A stretch of 42,538 nucleotides of DNA from an uncultured Candidatus Saccharibacteria bacterium (lineage in GTDB: Bacteria > Patescibacteriota > Saccharimonadia > Saccharimonadales > JAGQNJ01), in the NCBI GenBank assembly GCA_964493895.1, contig CAZBPY010000001.1, forward strand, positions 165,245 through 207,782, written 5' to 3'. Both the position numbers and the translations under genes were made by a program. The notes beneath the pieces are model-generated. The model did no database searches, had not been told where the DNA came from, and saw only the letters and a list, made by a program, of their open reading frames with translations. The stretch's first letter is position 1. Each line of letters begins with the position of its first letter. Below, in pieces: positions 4,412-40,489 of the stretch.

Positions 4412-5275
4412 CTATCTCCTTGCAATGCCCAAGAGGTAATTGCCGTATCCAGACTTTGTAAGCGCTTTAGCCTGTTCTATTAATTGATCCTGGCTAATCA
4501 ATCCTTGTTCAAAGGCTATTCGTTCAGGGCTGCCGATTATTTGCCCGGTACGTTTTTGTATGACTCTGACATAATCTGTAGCGTCACTAAGACTGTCTAT
4601 TGTGCCGGTGTCTAGCCATACATCTCCATCATCCAAAGTTGTAACTTTGAGTTTGCCGCGATTGGAGTACTCCTCATTTATTGAGGTTATTTCTAGCTCG
4701 CCTCGTTCACTCGGCTTTACGTTTTTGGCTATCCCAACCACATCATTGTCATAGAAGTAAAGCCCGACAACTGCATAATTGGATCTTGGATTGGTTGGCT
4801 TTTCTTCTATTGATACGGCATTCATATTGTCATCAAATTCCACTACACCATAGCGTTCAGGGTCGTTTACTTGATAGGCAAAAACAATGCCGCCGTCAGG
4901 ATCGGTGCACGTTTGCAGGGAGTCATCCAAATCTGCTCCATGAAAAATATTATCCCCAAGAACTAAAGCCACTTTATCGTTTCCAATAAATTCCTCGCCT
5001 ATTATAAACGCTTGTGCTAATCCATCTGGAGAAGGCTGAACGGCGTACTGAATATTAATACCCCACTTGGATCCATCTCCAAGCAGTTGTTGAAATTGTG
5101 GTTGATCTTCAGGGGTGGTTATTATCATGATATCTTGTATCTTTGCCTGCATGAGCGTGGCGAGAGGATAGTAAATCATCGGCTTGTCATAGATCGGTAT
5201 TAATTGCTTGCTAATACCTCGGGTGATTGGATGCAGCCTGCTGCCACTTCCACCGGCTAAAACTATACCCTTCAT
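4412..5275 (-). CDS. rmlA: Glucose-1-phosphate thymidylyltransferase
   Basis: [18 protein letters not shown]...[41 protein letters not shown]. Confidence 0.97.
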
Positions 5276-6129
5276 GACGATACCTCATTGCGTATATATT
5301 CTGCTAGATCATCCATCCAACTACGAGATTTGAAGCCGGATGATTGTATCTTATCAAGTTTGAGAGTACTCTGCAGGGGTCGCCGGGCAATACCAGTTTT
5401 GCCATGGTAATATTCCTCGGTGGATGTGTCGGTTACTTTCAAATCAAAGCCAGCATCAGCAAATATTTGTCTGGTAACTTCTGCCCAACTCACTGATTCA
5501 CCATCATTAGTAACATTGTAGGTGCCAAAAGGCGCCCCATTCGTTAATAGATGATCGATAGCTCGCACTAGTTCGCTAGTAAAAGTTAAGCGGCCAATCT
5601 GGTCGGAAACGACTGTTGGGCTAACACCTTTTTGACCAAGACCCAACATGGTTCTAACAAAATTTTTGCCTTCGCCAATCACCCAGCTGGTGCGCAGGAT
5701 ATAGAACTTATCTAGCTGTGATATCAGTAAATCACCGGCAGCCTTACTGGCTCCGTAGACATTTAATGGAGCAAAATCCTCATCTTCATCGTGCGCTGAC
5801 TGACTGCCGTCAAAGACATAGTCAGTAGATATATGTACTACTATCAGGTCGTTCTCCCAGGCAATATGGGCTAAGTTCTTGACGGCCTCGGCATTAACTT
5901 TCCAGGCAGCTTTGCGTCCCTCTTCGGTTTCAGCTCCATCGACATTTGTATATGCTGCTGCATTGATAACCACCTCGACATCAGACCAGTCAAAATTATC
6001 AACCGATTCTTTATTGGTGATATCCAGTTCGTCAATATCGGCGAATTGGGCTTTAGGATACTTAGCTCGTAAAGCTAGGCCTAGCTGTCCATTGGCTCCA
6101 ACAATAAAAATTTTTGAATCGTCCATCAT
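5272..6129 (-). CDS. rmlD: dTDP-4-dehydrorhamnose reductase
   Basis: [39 protein letters not shown] (YxxxK), LRTSWV. Confidence 0.95.
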
Positions 6130-6701
6130 TGCTCCATGGGTTTAATTTTTGACAACGGCGGGTGAGCTAAATCCTTTTCAGATAGTTCAGCTTGATCTAG
6201 GGGGATAGGCCAAGCAATATTTAGTTCTGGATCAGCAAGGTTAACTAAGGTGTAGCTTGCCTCTGGGTACCAGTGACCATTGACCAAATAAGTGTAAACT
6301 GTGTTGTCTTCAAGCGTTTGAAATGAATTTCCACAGCCGCGGGGAACAAAAATAGCATCACCGGGTGTCATGGTGAAAGTATCAACTGTTCCAAATCTTT
6401 CGCCATCGCGGAAATCTACAATGGCCGCAAAGACGGAGCCATAGGCTATGGAAATAAATTTGTCCCATGGCTCGGCGTGAATCCCGCGAGTCACTCCACG
6501 GGTGGCATTGAATGATATATTGTTTTGAACAACTTCAAAGTCTTCTGGCAAGCCGAGTGCGACCAATTTTTCTCGCTGGTAGTTCTCTTTAAACCAGCCT
6601 CTATTGTCACCATGTACCTCTAATTCAAAAGCCAATAAATCTTCAATTTTGGTTGGCTTTGATTTCAATTGCGGATATTTTGCTGGGTCAAATTCAGCCA
6701 T
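6126..6701 (-). CDS. rmlC: dTDP-4-dehydrorhamnose 3,5-epimerase
   Basis: HGDNRGWFKENY, QNNISF...GVTRGIHAEPW, FVPRGCGNSFQTL, ELSEKD. Confidence 0.95.
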   Translation of the reverse strand: MAEFDPAKYPQLKSKPTKIEDLLAFELEVHGDNRGWFKENYQREKLVALGLPEDFEVVQNNISFNATRGVTRGIHAEPWDKFISIAYGSVFAAIVDFRDGERFGTVDTFTMTPGDAIFVPRGCGNSFQTLEDNTVYTYLVNGHWYPEASYTLVNLADPELNIAWPIPLDQAELSEKDLAHPPLSKIKPMEQ

Positions 6702-6712
6702 GCCTAATACTC

Positions 6713-9088
<2,376 letters not shown>

Positions 9089-13039: not shown

Positions 13040-13445
13040 AATCAAGCGCCTCTTGGCCTATTCCATCACCGGCGGAGCCTGGTTTTGGTCGGGCTATTTA
13101 ACATTTGCAGTCTTGTATTCGGGCTTGGGTTGGTCGCTGTGGTGGGCCAAATTGATCGCCAATTTTGTCGGCATTGCCGTAAACTTCGTTTTAGAACGAA
13201 CTTGGGTTTTTAACCGTGGCCGCCGCAATAAACGCTTAACAGTAGTAACTGAACGCTACATCTTGCTGACAATCATTAACTTAGGTATCGACTACTTGAT
13301 TGTTAAATCCCTGCAAGATTACTTCGGTGTCACCCCTTACATCGGGCAATTCGTATCGGCTGGTTTCTTCTATGGCTGGAACTACATGTGGTACAAATAC
13401 TGGGTCTTCGCCGTAGCTCGCAAAACACGCAAAGGTTATGTATGA
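12987..13445 (+). CDS. GtrA family protein
   Basis: RLLAYSITGG, NFVLERTWVF, WNYMWYKYWVF; TATAAT 11 nt upstream. Confidence 0.85.
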   Translation: MSRTKPKQPIKQKKWRNEIKRLLAYSITGGAWFWSGYLTFAVLYSGLGWSLWWAKLIANFVGIAVNFVLERTWVFNRGRRNKRLTVVTERYILLTIINLGIDYLIVKSLQDYFGVTPYIGQFVSAGFFYGWNYMWYKYWVFAVARKTRKGYV

Positions 13446-13918
13446 GCCAAGGCCAGGCAAAAGATCAGGCCAAGATTCGGCCCACCAAGAAACAACGCCA
13501 GACCCTGACATTTATTGAAAGTTTTATCAAGCAGCACGGTTATAGCCCCAGCTACCGCGAGATTATGCGCGGCTGTAATTATTCGTCGGTGGCCACGGCC
13601 GCTCTGCATGTTAATAATCTGATCAAACGCGGGCATTTGCAAAAGCGAGACCATTCGGCCCGGTCGTTGGAAATTATTTCCGGGGAAGATTTAGATGATT
13701 TTCAGTCGACGGCTATAAAAGAGGGCGAAGAAAAATGGCTGGTCAAAAAAATCGAATACTATTTCAAACAAGCTGAAGACCAACAGACGATTTCACAATC
13801 TCAACTCGATGAGTTGTATGTGTTAACCGGAGCTTTGAAGGCTCTTGGTTTAGAGGGAGCAGCCCAGAGTTTTATTCCCCGACTTGGTGAGCTTAAGGGC
13901 AGGGTAGCTGATAAATGA
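13442..13918 (+). CDS. LexA-type winged-helix DNA-binding protein lacking the S24 peptidase domain
   Basis: TKKQRQTLTFIESFIKQHGYSPSYREI...SVATAALHVNNLIKRGHL..SARSLEII matches the LexA N-domain; the ~75-aa C-terminus looks helical with no Ala-Gly site or Ser/Lys dyad; ATGA overlaps at both ends. Confidence 0.85.
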   Translation: MSQGQAKDQAKIRPTKKQRQTLTFIESFIKQHGYSPSYREIMRGCNYSSVATAALHVNNLIKRGHLQKRDHSARSLEIISGEDLDDFQSTAIKEGEEKWLVKKIEYYFKQAEDQQTISQSQLDELYVLTGALKALGLEGAAQSFIPRLGELKGRVADK

Positions 13919-37077: not shown

Positions 37078-37153
37078 GGGGCGGTAGCTCAGTGGTTAGA
37101 GCAGTCGGCTCATAACCGATTGGCCGAAGGTTCAATTCCTTCCCGCCCCACCA
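37078..37153 (+). tRNA. tRNA with CAU anticodon (probably Ile2/lysidine; elongator Met not excluded), CCA encoded
   Basis: Acceptor GGGGCGG/CCGCCCC, D-arm GCTC/GAGC, anticodon arm GTCGG-CTCATAA-CCGAT, T-arm GAAGG-TTCAATT-CCTTC, A73, CCA. Not fMet (no C1:A72, no three G:C pairs in the anticodon stem). Confidence 0.95.
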
Positions 37154-37163
37154 CGCAAACACT

Positions 37164-37508
37164 CTATACTTTGCTGAAGAGTAAACAGACCATTTTCTTT
37201 CTGAGTACTTCTGATCTTTGTTGATCTGATCCTTCACCTAAATACATACCTTTAGCTTCTGCAGCAGGCAAGTAATTACTTACTTGCTCATAAAGGTTGG
37301 TCTGGTTTGTACTTAGCACACCATTCGGGGCCAGGATATAAATAACATCATAACCAAGCGGTAATTCTGAAGTTTCTTCACCAATAACCATTGTAGGCAT
37401 TTCTCCCAGTGATTCTGCGAAACGATTTGCCCTGCCCATTGTTTCAGGTGATCCAATTACTAGAACGTTTGTGTTGCGTATATCGTGGTTGAAATCTATC
37501 GGTATCAT
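37164..37508 (-). CDS. Cassette 1: hypothetical small alpha/beta protein (114 aa)
   Basis: Open frame; NVLVIG and DVIYILAP strands; start MIPIDF has TGaTAAACT 7 nt upstream. Confidence 0.65.
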   Translation of the reverse strand: MIPIDFNHDIRNTNVLVIGSPETMGRANRFAESLGEMPTMVIGEETSELPLGYDVIYILAPNGVLSTNQTNLYEQVSNYLPAAEAKGMYLGEGSDQQRSEVLRKKMVCLLFSKV

Positions 37509-37537
37509 CAGGGGTAGTTTATCAAGTGCTGTATTGT

Positions 37538-37690
37538 GGTTCAACGCTCTTTACCCTGTACCGCCAGCTCTGTTCAATTTGCACTAGGCCAGCTTCTCGA
37601 AGTTGCTTTGACCAATCAGATTTAGAGTTCGCTATCAACCACTCCGCGACAGTACCGAGAGGTTCAAAAGTCTTCGCTTTATCGCCACCA
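37538..37690 (+). repeat. Array repeat copy 1 (153 bp; 11-nt deletion removes the peptide stop codon)
   Basis: GGTTCAACGCTCTTTA ... GGTTCAAAAGTCTTCGCTTTATCGCCACCA. Confidence 0.93.
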
Positions 37691-37697
37691 CGGATTT

Positions 37698-38288
37698 TTA
37701 ACCACCGAGGCCAACTATTACCTCAATTGACCGACAATCATCGCCCTGGACACCTTCTTCAAAGTAGTGAATCCTTGAGTCCGCAGTTCCGTTAACGCCT
37801 GATGGTTCTAAATCAGATAGGTATGCGATTGCTTCACTTTTATGCTCGGGAGCAAGGGCCTGCATGGCATAACCAGATAGACAATCTGCGATTGCTTCTC
37901 GACGAGGACGAGTGGTTTCGATTTCTTGGCTAGTTACGTGTCCAAATTCATGACCAACGATAAAGTCAATTACACCATCAACTTCATCACCGTAGGTTTC
38001 TGCAAGAAAATCGAGAAACTTCTGCGTAAACTCAATGGTTGGTCCGCCATGCTCTTCTGGCACAAAGCAAGCATTAGCAAGCTTTCCGTTTAAGCAAGCT
38101 CCTGCATCATCTTCATCAAGCATATCAAGCTCAACATCAGTAGCATCTACACCACGGCTGACCCAGAAATCTTGATACCGCTCAAAGGCAGAGTCTAAGA
38201 TCGCTTGTGGTTTATCGCATGGGGCCGCTTCGCTACTTACACCAGCTAGGAGGGCGGTTGCTATAAGAACAGGAGCAAGTTTTCGCAT
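37698..38288 (-). CDS. Cassette 2: secreted neutral zinc metallopeptidase (YpfJ-like)
   Basis: Signal peptide; NACF, VGHEFGHV (HExxH), REAIADCLSG, GTADSRIHYFEEG. Confidence 0.82.
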   Translation of the reverse strand: MRKLAPVLIATALLAGVSSEAAPCDKPQAILDSAFERYQDFWVSRGVDATDVELDMLDEDDAGACLNGKLANACFVPEEHGGPTIEFTQKFLDFLAETYGDEVDGVIDFIVGHEFGHVTSQEIETTRPRREAIADCLSGYAMQALAPEHKSEAIAYLSDLEPSGVNGTADSRIHYFEEGVQGDDCRSIEVIVGLGG

Positions 38289-38334
38289 TAAATCTATTTT
38301 TTCACCGCATCGCTATAATGCAAGCATAAGCTTA

Positions 38335-38498
38335 GGTTCAACGCTCTTTATCTTACTCTTTTCTAGTACCGCCACATCTGTTCGACTGTAACCCTTGACA
38401 TCTCTTCCAACTGATTTGTCCAGTCAGGATTAGGGTGAGCAATCAGCCACTCTACGACAGACTTCAAAGGTTCAACACTCTTCGCTTTATCGCCACCA
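38335..38498 (+). repeat. Array repeat copy 2 (164 bp, intact)
   Basis: GGTTCAACGCTCTTTATC ... GGTTCAACACTCTTCGCTTTATCGCCACCA. Confidence 0.95.
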
Positions 38499-38541
38499 CA
38501 AAGTATTGCATTTTACATATAACTATGTTAAAATAATAAGC

Positions 38542-38805
38542 ATGGCACGATCGACAGCCGCACAGTCAGAGTTAGTCACGGTTCGTCTTACTGGCGATGA
38601 TATAACTACTGCAAAAGAACTAGCAATGATTGCTGATGTTACTGGCTCAAACTTCTCTAGAGAGGTACGGGCTGGTTTACAGATGCGATTAGATCAAATC
38701 AGACAAGATCCTGCAGACAGAGCGGCTATTATAGCTGGGGTTGTCGAGCAGCACAGGGTAGCTGAAGAGTTTTTGGGTGAAGAAATACATATACCTAGAA
38801 GCTAG
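38542..38805 (+). CDS. Cassette 3: small putative DNA-binding protein (ribbon-helix-helix-like)
   Basis: Beta-like LVTVRLT followed by two amphipathic helices; TTGCAT...TAAAAT promoter 7 nt before the ATG; the stop codon TAG overlaps repeat 3. Confidence 0.65.
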   Translation: MARSTAAQSELVTVRLTGDDITTAKELAMIADVTGSNFSREVRAGLQMRLDQIRQDPADRAAIIAGVVEQHRVAEEFLGEEIHIPRS

Positions 38806-38968
38806 GTTCAACGCTCTTTATCTTGTAGCTAATTAGTACCGCCAACTCTGTTCAATGGTCACCGAACCAGCTTCTTTGAGCTGTAATGACCAGGCGGGAC
38901 TAGGGTTCGCAATCATCCATTCCACAACAGAACTCAAAGGTTCAAAACTCTTCGCTTTATCGCCACCA
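38805..38968 (+). repeat. Array repeat copy 3 (164 bp, intact)
   Basis: GGTTCAACGCTCTTTATC ... GGTTCAAAACTCTTCGCTTTATCGCCACCA. Confidence 0.95.
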
Positions 38969-39011
38969 GATTCCACTGTCCGTTTCATCGTAATAGTGCT
39001 AATGTATACTC

Positions 39012-39707
39012 ATGGATAATCAACAAAATATTGCCCCTCAAACTCAAACTCAAACTGATCAAAACCTAAACCAACCAAAGCAGCCCCAGAATAAAAAGAA
39101 AATCATAGTAGTCTCACTCATTGCAATCCTAATTCTAGCTGCATTCGGGGGCTTATACTATTGGCAAAACAGCAAGAATAAAAATTTGCAAAAACAACTG
39201 GATGCTACAAAGGCTCAATTAGAAAAACAGCAAACTAAAACAGAGGTTAATGATATTCCAACCACGAAAGCACCTGTTGATCCTAACTATGCAGGCTGGG
39301 CACAAGTGACAAACGAAACCTTAAATCCAAATCAAATAGCACTTTACAAGAACGGCACAGCAACATTATCTGTGTATAGTAAAGAACCCATGATGAACCT
39401 AAGCTCTAATGCTCCTGGATACTGCACACTACAGAATGAGGCGTGGACACCTTCTGATAGGTGTAATAGTAGCATTACTGAGTCGACAGTTAATGGCATG
39501 AACGCATATACGGCATATGGAGGAGCTCTCGGCCGAACTAAATACTTAGTAGTAGTCCAGAGCAACAATCAGTGGTTCGTCTTTAGTGACTATCTTGATT
39601 ATGACCCAGATCCAACAAAGGACTCTAATGTAGAAATAAACCAGGACAAAGCTCAACTAGCAAGTTCAATGGAAAAGCTCGTTGCCAAAGTACTTCCGCA
39701 AAATTAG
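39012..39707 (+). CDS. Cassette 4: bitopic surface protein (Gln/Asn-rich tail, TM, coiled coil, small extracellular domain with a Cys pair)
   Basis: KKKIIVVSLIAILILAAFGGLYYW TM, then KNLQKQLDATKAQLEKQQ heptads. Confidence 0.82.
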   Translation: MDNQQNIAPQTQTQTDQNLNQPKQPQNKKKIIVVSLIAILILAAFGGLYYWQNSKNKNLQKQLDATKAQLEKQQTKTEVNDIPTTKAPVDPNYAGWAQVTNETLNPNQIALYKNGTATLSVYSKEPMMNLSSNAPGYCTLQNEAWTPSDRCNSSITESTVNGMNAYTAYGGALGRTKYLVVVQSNNQWFVFSDYLDYDPDPTKDSNVEINQDKAQLASSMEKLVAKVLPQN

Positions 39708-39709
39708 AT

Positions 39710-39839
39710 TTAGTATCTCCACACCTGTTCAATCTGCACTGAACTTGCTCCTTTGAGCTGTGACACCCATCCAGGCTAGGGTTAGAAATCAGCCAATCAA
39801 CTACACTAGCCAAAGGTTCAAAAACACATCTTTTTCACC
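39710..39839 (+). repeat. Array repeat copy 4 (degenerate: left site lost, -1 frameshift, CCACCA end eroded)
   Basis: Minus strand reads FEPLASVVDWLISNPS /frameshift/ GWVSQLKGASSVQIEQVWRY-stop. Confidence 0.88.
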
Positions 39840-39953
39840 TTCAGTAATTTTATAGGCTTGTTTCTTGCTATCCATGCGGTCTTTGTTATTTCGTAAAATT
39901 ATGCTTTTACGACAACTTTGAATAAACGCTGCATCAAGCTTATAGTTATGTGT

Positions 39954-40457
39954 ATGAATGAAACACTAGATCAACCAAGAGAACACATAGATTTATCAAC
40001 TGATGAGTACACGGCTGCATTTGCTGCTGCTCCGCTTTATGCTAAGAAGTCTCTAGTTAAAATGAGAGCTGCAACACCAGGTGAAACTATTGTCACAAGG
40101 CTACAGGATGGCACAGTGGAAACCACAAACACAGCTGGTAAAAACCAAGTTGTTGTTACAAATCTTGGTGGTGAGGAGTATATTATCGATGCTGATAAGG
40201 CTGCTAAGCGTTATGAAGAAACAGATGAACCTGGCGTCTTTAGGGCAACAGGCATGGCAAGAATTATAGATAACCCTACTGGAGGTGACGTAAGCGTGAC
40301 GGCTCCTTGGGGTGAAGAGCAGCTTGGAGCGGCTGACTGTAAGTTTGCTGCACTCTATGATCCAACTCAGCCAGAGGTGGTAAGCGACGACCGCTATATA
40401 TTGGGTGCTGCCGAGTTTGCAGAAACCTACGGTCTTGTCGAAGAAGTGCTGGGATAA
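39954..40457 (+). CDS. Cassette 5: PGDYG-like protein with an internal tandem duplication
   Basis: Two halves ending GGEEYIIDADKAAKRYE and DDRYILGAAEFAETYG; TATAGT 7 nt before ATG 39954. Confidence 0.7.
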   Translation: MNETLDQPREHIDLSTDEYTAAFAAAPLYAKKSLVKMRAATPGETIVTRLQDGTVETTNTAGKNQVVVTNLGGEEYIIDADKAAKRYEETDEPGVFRATGMARIIDNPTGGDVSVTAPWGEEQLGAADCKFAALYDPTQPEVVSDDRYILGAAEFAETYGLVEEVLG

Positions 40458-40465
40458 CAAGCCTA

Positions 40466-40489
40466 GGTTCAAAGCTCTTCGCTTTATCG
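40466..40489 (+). repeat. Array repeat copy 5 (collapsed single site)
   Basis: ctaGGTTCAAAGCTCTTCGCTTTATCG; left-site flank joined to right-site core. Confidence 0.85.

What the first reader, a model, noticed from the sequence alone, without database searches (positions are those of the whole stretch)
38335..40489. Each repeat is bracketed by two direct sub-sites mimicking the tRNA T-loop, and copy 5 looks like their recombination product
Seen: left site GGTTCAA-CGCT-CTTTATC and right site GGTTCAA-AACTCTTCG-CTTTATC-GCCACCA lie about 135 bp apart. The tRNA itself ends GGTTCAA-TTCCTTCCCGCC-CCACCA, so the right site keeps both tRNA landmarks but not the stems. Copy 5 (ctaGGTTCAAAGCTCTTCGCTTTATCG) has the left-site flank 'cta/tag' fused to the right-site body, as expected if the interior was deleted between the two GGTTCAA motifs. 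Inference: GGTTCAA and CTTTATC are recombinase-binding or crossover motifs, and left-right recombination can excise the spacer or a cassette.
Basis: partly seen in the sequence, partly recalled or inferred. Interest (0 to 1): 0.72.

Follow-up and report, generated by a model that had tools for sequence, protein, structure and literature searches.

The report
Left-behind tails of a split integrase
The repeats are the last 44 codons, plus half an attachment site, of a large serine integrase gene that is cut in two whenever a small mobile element inserts at the end of the tRNA-Met gene of this Saccharibacteria genome, so the 'T-loop mimic' is the integrase's recognition word, not evidence that left and right sites recombine with each other.

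Summary
Three full units, one decayed unit and one lone site lie downstream of tRNA-Met (37078-37153), exactly as described.

The roughly 135-bp 'spacer' is not a spacer. On the minus strand, each unit is the last 44 codons of a large serine recombinase (LSR) gene. Full-length 559-563-aa LSRs ending in this tail occur on small Saccharibacteria contigs, two of which look circular (5.2 and 9.35 kb). In integrated copies a 520-aa LSR reads into the antisense of the tRNA-Met 3' end. The 44-codon tail sits at the far end of the element, and rejoining the two pieces restores a 559-aa frame.

The right site (R) is therefore the attP half-site inside the LSR gene. This 5-bp shift matches the published attP/attB rule for serine integrases. 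The crossover is most likely in CCACCA, not in GGTTCAA.

The left site (L) is conserved just after the LSR stop codon, including on the apparently circular contigs. It has R's words 5 bp closer together. Its function is unknown.

Nothing shows that L and R recombine. Copy 5 is unique and ambiguous. The window holds only scars and no recombinase. How the integrase-free cassettes accumulate is inferred, not shown.

The parts
37078..37153 (+). tRNA-Met. Its last 24 nt (37130-37153; TGGTGG-N12-TTGAAC on the minus strand) form the inferred B half-site of attB.
   Evidence: ARAGORN and Rfam. B-type N12 spacing. In relatives the LSR reads into this tRNA's antisense.
37154..37537 (-). Cargo 0: 126-aa ORF (37164-37544) of unknown function. 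Variable DNA begins directly after the CCA.
   Evidence: The post-tRNA segment differs in every related genome.
37538..37690 (-). Unit 1. L1 is 37538-37555. The LSR C-terminal fragment is 37558-37689, with its stop codon lost. R1 is 37661-37690.
   Evidence: tblastn to residues 520-563 of the full-length LSR P0116 gives E 5e-5.
37691..38334 (-). Cargo A: 196-aa ORF (37698-38288) with a signal-like N-terminus and an HEFGH motif, so possibly a secreted metallopeptidase. No Pfam hit.
   Evidence: the motif was read from the translation.
38335..38498 (-). Unit 2. L2 is 38335-38356. The stop codon is 38363-38365. The LSR tail codons are 38366-38497. R2 is 38469-38498.
38499..38804 (+). Cargo B: 99-aa ORF (38506-38805). 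Its TAG stop overlaps the outer edge of L3.
38805..38968 (-). Unit 3. L3 is 38805-38826. The stop codon is 38833-38835. The LSR tail codons are 38836-38967. R3 is 38939-38968.
   Evidence: (E 4e-6).
38969..39706 (+). Cargo C: 231-aa membrane-anchored protein (39012-39707). Its N-terminal part has a homologue in the array on contig CAZBGZ010000001.1 (loci L006+L004).
39707..39844 (-). Unit 4, decayed. The LSR tail is split over two frames (39713-39775 and 39748-39822). There is no L, and R is degenerate (39815-39844).
39845..40462 (+). Cargo D: 179-aa protein (39918-40457) with a weak PGDYG match (below Pfam's cutoff). In L019 a weak-PGDYG gene sits next to L in an integrated element.
40463..40489 (-). 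Site 5. It has an L-type outer flank (cta), an R-type interior (ATAAAG-N9-TTGAAC), no tail codons and no CCACCA.

Best explanation
Shown:
- Each repeat is what stays at the distal junction (attR) when a small integrative element of Saccharibacteria inserts at the CCA end of tRNA-Met.
- The element's large serine recombinase (LSR) gene carries attP inside its own 3' end.
- Integration therefore splits the gene. A 520-aa LSR(N) keeps the complete catalytic and DNA-binding fold. It ends up next to the tRNA and reads a few codons into the tRNA's antisense (GGGGWT*).
- The last 44 codons, the stop codon and a conserved downstream word (L) end up at the other end of the element.
- R is the P half-site of attP written in those codons (GGDKAK.FEP). 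It shares the inner CCACCA and the outer GGTTCAA with the tRNA end, with the outer word 5 bp further out.

Inferred:
- The crossover is at AC in CC[AC]CA.
- GGTTCAA is the word read by the LSR zinc-ribbon domain.
- The window's array records at least four or five insertions of different elements. Their LSR(N) side was later lost, leaving cargo genes plus tails.
- L is a conserved part of the element's integration module, and its role is unknown.
For: **The module is protein-coding.**
- The minus-strand frame is open in 19 of 19 distinct full modules. The other frames are not.
- pN/pS is about 0.5 in the body.
- A profile search of 1.84 billion proteins finds the module only at C-termini of tiny ORFs.

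**The module belongs to an LSR gene.**
- In L020 the module continues upstream, in frame, into sequence that matches the C-terminus of a Pfam-verified LSR (64% identity over the 25 aligned residues, E 8e-9; tblastn over 106 residues E 1e-26; Pfam).
- Full-length LSRs P0042, P0065 and P0116 (559-563 aa) end in the 44-aa tail.
- The window's modules hit their residues 519-563.

**Free and integrated forms both exist.**
- Contigs L021 (9352 bp) and L023 (5204 bp) carry full-length LSRs. They have 30-nt terminal repeats and no tRNA.
- In L024, L026 and L007 the LSR overlaps tRNA-Met in antisense.
- In L024 the tail lies 4.3 kb away. Joining the two pieces at GGTGG gives an uninterrupted 559-aa ORF.
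- At least 38 of the 120 best homologues end in GG..W[TSI]*.

**The site geometry fits serine integrases.**
- Every full module matched by the pattern scan has TGGTGG-N17-TTGAAC, and every flanking tRNA-Met it matched has TGGTGG-N12-TTGAAC.
- This matches the 5-bp zinc-ribbon motif shift between attP and attB (PMC3783163).

**The locus behaves as an insertion hot spot.**
- Arrays lie beside tRNA-Met in all related genomes, with different cargo in each.
- Modules within the window are no closer to each other (68-76%) than to modules elsewhere (up to 83%).
Against: - The window has no LSR(N) or any other recombinase, so nothing shows activity in this genome.
- By the published model (PMC3783163), serine integrases recombine only attP with attB. 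Repeated insertion at an occupied tRNA end, and the clean loss of LSR(N), are therefore not explained.
- Only two modules keep extra LSR codons upstream (L020, and L004 293-379).
- Flanks after CCACCA show no clear B' half-site consensus.
- The central dinucleotide and the zinc-ribbon assignment rest on symmetry and analogy.
- Circularity rests on terminal repeats of two assembled contigs.
- In one clade (L018) the LSR frame stops before the junction.
- L remains unexplained.
Confidence: 0.82

Rival explanations
1. L and R are paired crossover sites. Recombination between them, or between R of one unit and L of the next, excises the spacer or a cassette, as in an integron.
For: - L and R share GGTTCAA and CTTTATC and co-vary between clades.
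- Cargo is bounded tightly by R on one side and L on the other.
- Copy 5 has an L flank and an R interior.
Against: - L and R are direct repeats, and L has no inverted partner half-site.
- L is already present next to the LSR stop codon in the apparently circular copies, so its sharp outer edge simply marks the end of the conserved integration module.
- Intact attP symmetry is centred on GGTGG, not on TTGAAC.
- No tandem tail-tail product, and no other L/R hybrid, was seen among about 40 sites.
- No integron-type integrase is present, and there are no hairpin-forming inverted repeats.
Confidence: 0.08
2. The array grew mainly by homologous recombination or natural transformation. The conserved tRNA and the conserved modules would act as homology anchors that swap or add cargo, rather than by repeated LSR insertions. 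This rival concerns array growth only, not what the units are.
For: - No LSR(N) remnants lie next to most R sites.
- R is nearly identical over about 30 nt in all copies.
- Modules next to homologous cargo in two related genomes are not each other's best matches.
- An intact LSR lies inside an array in L013.
Against: - Every R ends exactly at CCACCA, as expected of site-specific junctions.
- Modules are only 68-83% identical outside R, which makes them poor substrates for homologous exchange.
Confidence: 0.25
3. The units are displaced 3' ends of a chromosomal target gene, as with orfX repeats in SCCmec composites, or they are a free-standing small gene or a structured RNA.
For: - The stop codon is conserved and the sequence shows coding-type divergence.
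- One copy has an ATG (38988).
Against: - No long non-LSR protein ends in the module among 1.84 billion representatives.
- Most copies have no start codon.
- There is no Rfam match.
- The only long proteins with this ending are LSRs.
Confidence: 0.02

Closest known systems
SSV1-type ('suicidal', type I) integrases of archaeal viruses and plasmids
   Same: attP lies inside the integrase reading frame. Integration at a tRNA gene splits the gene into int(N) and int(C) at the two ends of the element. The att site is translated as part of the protein. A second, tandem insertion can rebuild an intact gene (PMC7253208).
   Different: Those are tyrosine recombinases, said to be restricted to archaea, and both halves are inactive stumps. 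Here the enzyme is a bacterial large serine recombinase. Only a 44-aa appendage beyond the complete fold is removed. The cut is at the CCA end, so no tRNA copy is needed.
Myxococcus phage Mx8 intP/intX
   Same: It is bacterial. attP lies in the 3' part of int, so integration gives the integrase a new C-terminus and changes its properties (PMC6070905).
   Different: It is a tyrosine integrase. No arrays of left-behind tails have been described for it.
Large serine integrases (Listeria A118/LI, phiC31, Bxb1, SPbeta)
   Same: The domain order is Resolvase, Recombinase, zinc ribbon with coiled coil. The sites are short. The outer motif lies 5 bp nearer the centre in attB than in attP (PMC3783163).
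   Different: I found no described case of attP inside the serine integrase's own coding sequence. The target is the extreme 3' end of a tRNA gene. The extra half-site-like word L lies downstream of the gene.
tRNA-anchored islands built by tandem insertions (for example tycheposons of Prochlorococcus)
   Same: A tRNA gene seeds a variable island. Newer elements push older ones outward. Remnants and cargo accumulate between repeated att copies (bioRxiv 10.1101/2020.12.28.424599).
   Different: There the separators are partial tRNA copies, and integrase fragments are common. Here the separators are integrase tails, with only a tRNA-like word at each end.
Integron cassette arrays
   Same: Compact single-gene cassettes are separated by a conserved module of about 150 bp that has a related word at each end.
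   Different: There is no integron integrase. The two words are direct repeats, not inverted. The module is coding sequence rather than a folded attC. Cargo genes lie on both strands.

Membership tests
Large serine recombinase (source gene of the repeat) | An N-terminal Resolvase catalytic domain, then a Recombinase domain, then a zinc ribbon with an inserted coiled coil. | tested here: met
   Pfam on P0065, P0116 and P0031. The AF2 model shows the full architecture up to about residue 515. This was tested on relatives; the window itself holds only the tail codons.
Large serine recombinase (source gene of the repeat) | The window's repeat is homologous to part of such a gene. | tested here: met
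   tblastn of full-length LSRs hits 37558-37689, 38366-38500 and 38836-38970 at residues 519-563. L020 gives in-frame continuity.
Serine-integrase attachment sites | attP and attB half-sites share the inner region, with the outer (zinc-ribbon) motif 5 bp nearer the centre in attB. | tested here: met
   N17 in all modules against N12 in all tRNA-Met targets. This was tested for the P/B halves only.
Serine-integrase attachment sites | A second, inverted half-site (P' and B') flanks a 2-bp crossover. | tested here: inconclusive
   P' has GT[CTGA]AA[AG] 24 nt upstream of GGTGG in the intact genes, with GTTCAG in L020. B' flanks show no consensus.
Serine-integrase attachment sites | The enzyme recombines attP with attB. 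| not testable with these tools
   This needs an in vitro or in vivo assay.
SSV-type split ('suicidal') integrase | attP lies inside the integrase ORF, and the gene is split on integration. | tested here: met
SSV-type split ('suicidal') integrase | The enzyme is a tyrosine recombinase of the SSV family. | tested here: not met
   The domains are those of a serine recombinase.
Integron | An IntI tyrosine integrase with attI next to the array. | tested here: not met
   Pfam found no recombinase among the window ORFs scanned, and tblastn found no LSR(N).
Integron | attC sites with imperfect inverted repeats. | tested here: not met
   L and R are direct repeats. No inverted repeat was found within units.
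tRNA-island accretion with partial tRNA repeats | Separators are displaced copies of the tRNA 3' part. | tested here: not met
   R shares only GGTTCAA and CCACCA with the tRNA end and is 5 nt longer. The tRNA is not cut internally.

The most novel reading that the evidence does not exclude
The split is a built-in switch. The free element makes a 559-aa integrase whose 44-aa tail favours, or permits, integration. Once inserted, the gene makes a tail-less 520-aa enzyme with changed directionality or specificity, for example excision without a separate directionality factor, or relaxed partner choice. That relaxed enzyme, perhaps together with the B-type half-site L, would let elements insert next to or excise away from older copies. 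Cargo plus tail would be deposited each time and a usable tRNA end restored. This would amount to a cassette-collecting system run by a serine integrase in ultra-small genomes.
Probability: 0.25. Interest if true: 0.8.

Novelty: new variant of a known kind. Interest (0 to 1): 0.62.

Why it matters
- It explains a puzzling repeat family in Saccharibacteria genomes and marks a conserved insertion hot spot beside tRNA-Met.
- It extends the split-integrase design, so far described for tyrosine integrases of archaea and phage Mx8, to a bacterial large serine recombinase. In the searched library I found no described case of a serine integrase carrying attP in its own coding sequence.
- It yields predicted attP and attB sequences for a family of several hundred integrases. 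These could be tested as genetic tools for Saccharibacteria/Patescibacteria, where such tools are scarce.
- It offers a natural experiment on how a C-terminal appendage affects serine-integrase directionality.
- The left-behind tails are a ready-made record of past insertions in each genome.

Tried and rejected
- **Word-indexed protein search with one tail peptide:** nothing found.
- **Pfam on the tail:** no hit.
- **PDB sequence search:** only chance hits.
- **AF2 of the tail alone:** two helices at pLDDT 72, with no Foldseek match in PDB.
- **Resemblance to other protein folds:** I considered a resolvase C-terminal helix-turn-helix and a tyrosine-recombinase box II. Both came from memory, and the sequence searches run here gave them no support.
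- **Structured RNA or tRNA-like element:** no Rfam hit apart from the tRNA.
- **dif/Xer-like site or hairpin attC:** there is no dyad symmetry within L or R (and reading the sequence).
- **DGR, silent pilin cassettes, orphan toxin modules:** the pattern does not fit, because the tails are conserved and not variable.
- **Chromosomal target gene X:** none exists.
- **Viral contigs:** no module, and only integrases at 31% identity or less.
- **Tracing which module travels with a shared cargo** (window against CAZBGZ010000001.1, and that contig against L012): uninformative, because modules are shuffled.
- **Consensus for the B' half-site:** none found.
- **Antisense reading frame:** it shares the wobble phase but has stops in 8 of 19 modules.
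Full report
**Observation**

The region downstream of tRNA-Met (37078-37153) contains three complete repeat units (37538-37690, 38335-38498, 38805-38968). It also contains a decayed fourth unit (39707-39844) and a lone 24-nt site (40466-40489).

- The right-site pattern occurs 4 times and the left-site pattern 3 times. Neither occurs at all in dinucleotide-preserving shuffles.
- The tRNA ends GGTTCAA-N12-CCACCA and the right sites read GGTTCAA-N17-CCACCA.
It leaves out unit 1 and the tRNA anchor.

**What the 'spacer' is**

Read on the minus strand, R plus the interior is an open frame of 44 codons. It reads GGDKAK[ST]FEPL..VVEWLI.NP.P.WS.QLKEA..V.IEQ.WRY and ends at a conserved stop. L lies 8-14 nt after that stop.

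- The frame is open in all 19 distinct full-length copies collected from this window and from related loci. The antisense frame that shares its wobble phase has stops in 8 of 19.
- In codons 12-44, synonymous divergence is near saturation (pS 0.56-0.60) while pN is 0.27-0.30.
- In the 11 codons that make up R, pS is only 0.09. R is therefore constrained as DNA on top of its coding role.
- Most copies have no start codon.
- A profile search of 1.84 billion representative proteins found the domain only at the C-terminus of tiny called ORFs.

**Relatives**

A DNA-pattern scan of one genome per species found the same arrays in other Candidatus Saccharibacteria MAGs. Protein look-ups found more distant versions.

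- In every case where the contig reaches far enough, the array lies directly 3' of a tRNA-Met gene and antisense to it. This includes two relatives whose tRNA-Met carries a group I intron.
- Where the contig reaches that far, genes on the tRNA's 5' side are syntenic with the window (Dus, HxlR-type regulator, FMN reductase), but the cargo between units differs in every genome.
- The architecture R, 33 codons, stop, short gap, L is kept in distant clades whose R and L sequences differ from the window's. In each clade, L and R share the same TTGAAC-containing word.

**Identification of the gene**

- Locus L018 has a module followed by four small genes and then a 493-aa protein with Resolvase and Recombinase domains on the same strand.
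- In locus L020 the module continues upstream, in frame, for about 64 more codons. [quoted passage not shown]
- A search with the L018 protein returned 585 homologues, mostly from Saccharimonadales.
- Typical members are 520-521 aa and end ...ATE[FI]..GGGGW[TSI]*.
- Three members of 559-563 aa (P0042, P0065, P0116) end in the 44-aa module.
- tblastn of these full-length proteins hits the window's three units at residues 519-563. It finds no other part of the recombinase in the window.

**Integrated and free forms**

- In L024 (a 1.09-Mb contig), L026 and L007, the 520-aa gene overlaps tRNA-Met in antisense. Its last codons are the reverse complement of the tRNA's 3' end.
- In L024 the 44-codon module lies 4.3 kb away at the other end of a 6-kb insert. 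Joining the two at their shared GGTGG gives an uninterrupted 559-aa frame, the same length as P0042 and P0065.
- Contigs L021 (9352 bp) and L023 (5204 bp) carry the full-length gene and no tRNA. They have 30-nt terminal direct repeats, as expected of circular molecules in a k=31 assembly.
- Of the 120 best homologues, at least 38 have the short tRNA-antisense ending and 3 have the long tail.
- The recombinase gene therefore contains its own attP and is split by integration.

**Site geometry**

- Every module has TGGTGG-N17-TTGAAC. Every tRNA-Met target has TGGTGG-N12-TTGAAC.
- Rutherford et al. showed for serine integrases that the zinc-ribbon-domain motif lies 5 bp nearer the crossover in attB than in attP (PMC3783163). 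The same rule fits here.
- This explains why R keeps both tRNA landmarks but not the stems. The enzyme must read the same words in both partners, at different spacing.
- In intact genes an inverted, degenerate copy of the outer word lies 24 nt upstream of GGTGG. That places the dyad centre at GG|TGG, which is AC in CC[AC]CA on the tRNA strand.
- The centre assignment is an inference. It agrees with the fact that conservation of every module, and variability after every tRNA, start exactly at CCACCA.
- An exchange there leaves the tRNA intact without the element having to carry a tRNA copy.

**The left site**

- L is present just after the stop codon in the apparently circular copies, in single integrated copies and in arrays. 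It belongs to the element's conserved integration module, so its sharp outer edge need not be a recombination junction.
- In most clades examined it repeats R's words with 5 bp less between them: ATAAAG-N4-TTGAAC against ATAAAG-N9-TTGAAC in the window, and GAAG-N4 against GAAG-N9 in several other clades (the L009 clade could not be aligned this way) (read). In other words, it has attB-like spacing.
- It has no inverted partner beside it, so it is not a complete site. Its role is unknown.

**Copy 5**

- It lacks CCACCA and is the only such site among about 40 examined.
- In L019 a weak-PGDYG gene like cargo D is followed by a normal L-tail-R unit. A deletion between the two GGTTCAA words of a former unit 5 is therefore plausible.
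- Slippage or ordinary decay explains it as well as a dedicated reaction does.

**How the array arose (inferred)**

- Modules within the window are 68-76% identical to each other and up to 83% identical to modules in other genomes. They come from different elements, not from local duplication.
- The simplest reading is repeated insertion at the tRNA end, with later loss of the recombinase side of each element.
- Two modules elsewhere still carry extra upstream recombinase codons (L020, L004). L013 has an intact divergent recombinase inside an array. These are the intermediates expected from tandem insertion and decay.
- Serine integrases normally act only on attP x attB. Flanks after CCACCA also show no clear B' consensus. 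This step remains open, and homologous exchange anchored on the tRNA and modules is a live alternative.

**What the split removes**

Pfam and an AlphaFold model of P0065 show a complete serine-integrase fold up to about residue 515. The tail is a low-confidence helical appendage. Unlike SSV-type integrases, the integrated gene probably still encodes a competent enzyme with a different C-terminus, as in Mx8 (PMC6070905). Whether this changes directionality is untested.

**Comparison and novelty**

- Split integrases with attP in the reading frame are described for archaeal SSV-type tyrosine recombinases, where the type is said to be restricted to archaea (PMC7253208). They are also described for Mx8.
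- Searches of the paper library found no serine-integrase case and no description of these Saccharibacteria elements.
- I file this as a new variant of a known kind.
- The window itself holds only the scars, not an active system.

Noticed in passing
L005 4662-4852; L012 11011-11206 and 11198-11641: In two related genomes the tRNA-Met next to the array carries a group I intron (Rfam RF00028). L012 also has an adjacent 147-aa ORF with HNH-like Cys/His motifs (judged by eye). ARAGORN does not call these tRNAs.
   Followed up: partly
Proteins P0049, P0069, P0072 and the short forms ending GRGDRT/GRGGRI: A sister subfamily of the same recombinases has GR instead of GG at the junction, and its long forms carry unrelated 45-50-aa tails. 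It probably uses the same split-gene design aimed at a different tRNA.
   Followed up: no
L013 40-1356: An intact, divergent recombinase with only a 16-aa tail (GGRHLDGMEPIESFSY*) lies inside an array, distal to a normal module. The tail body can evidently be dispensed with in some lineages.
   Followed up: partly
Flanks after R sites in L004/L006, L009, L012 and L013: The word GCTTATGGT(A/T)A recurs a few to about 20 nt after several R sites. It may be a cargo promoter (extended -10-like).
   Followed up: no
window 37698-38288 (-): The cargo protein has a signal-like N-terminus and an HEFGH motif but no Pfam match. It may be a secreted zinc peptidase of an undescribed family.
   Followed up: no
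window 38506-38805 and 38805-38807: The TAG stop of cargo gene B is formed with the first bases of L3, so gene and site overlap. In L019 the stop of the weak-PGDYG gene overlaps L in the same way.
   Followed up: partly
L024 9784-9975, L026 7495-7671, L018 7140-7322, L023 3099-3287: A small ORF of 58-63 aa sits directly upstream of the recombinase gene in several elements. It is a candidate directionality factor or regulator.
   Followed up: no
window 1-36100: Ordinary core genome: dTDP-rhamnose genes (4412-7723), glycosyltransferases, a Wzy-like protein, a LexA-like protein (13388-13918), MgtE, a class II tRNA synthetase, a 942-aa GDSL protein, MscS, a Mur ligase, an ABC-2 transporter and Dus. 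No mobile-element genes.
   Followed up: yes
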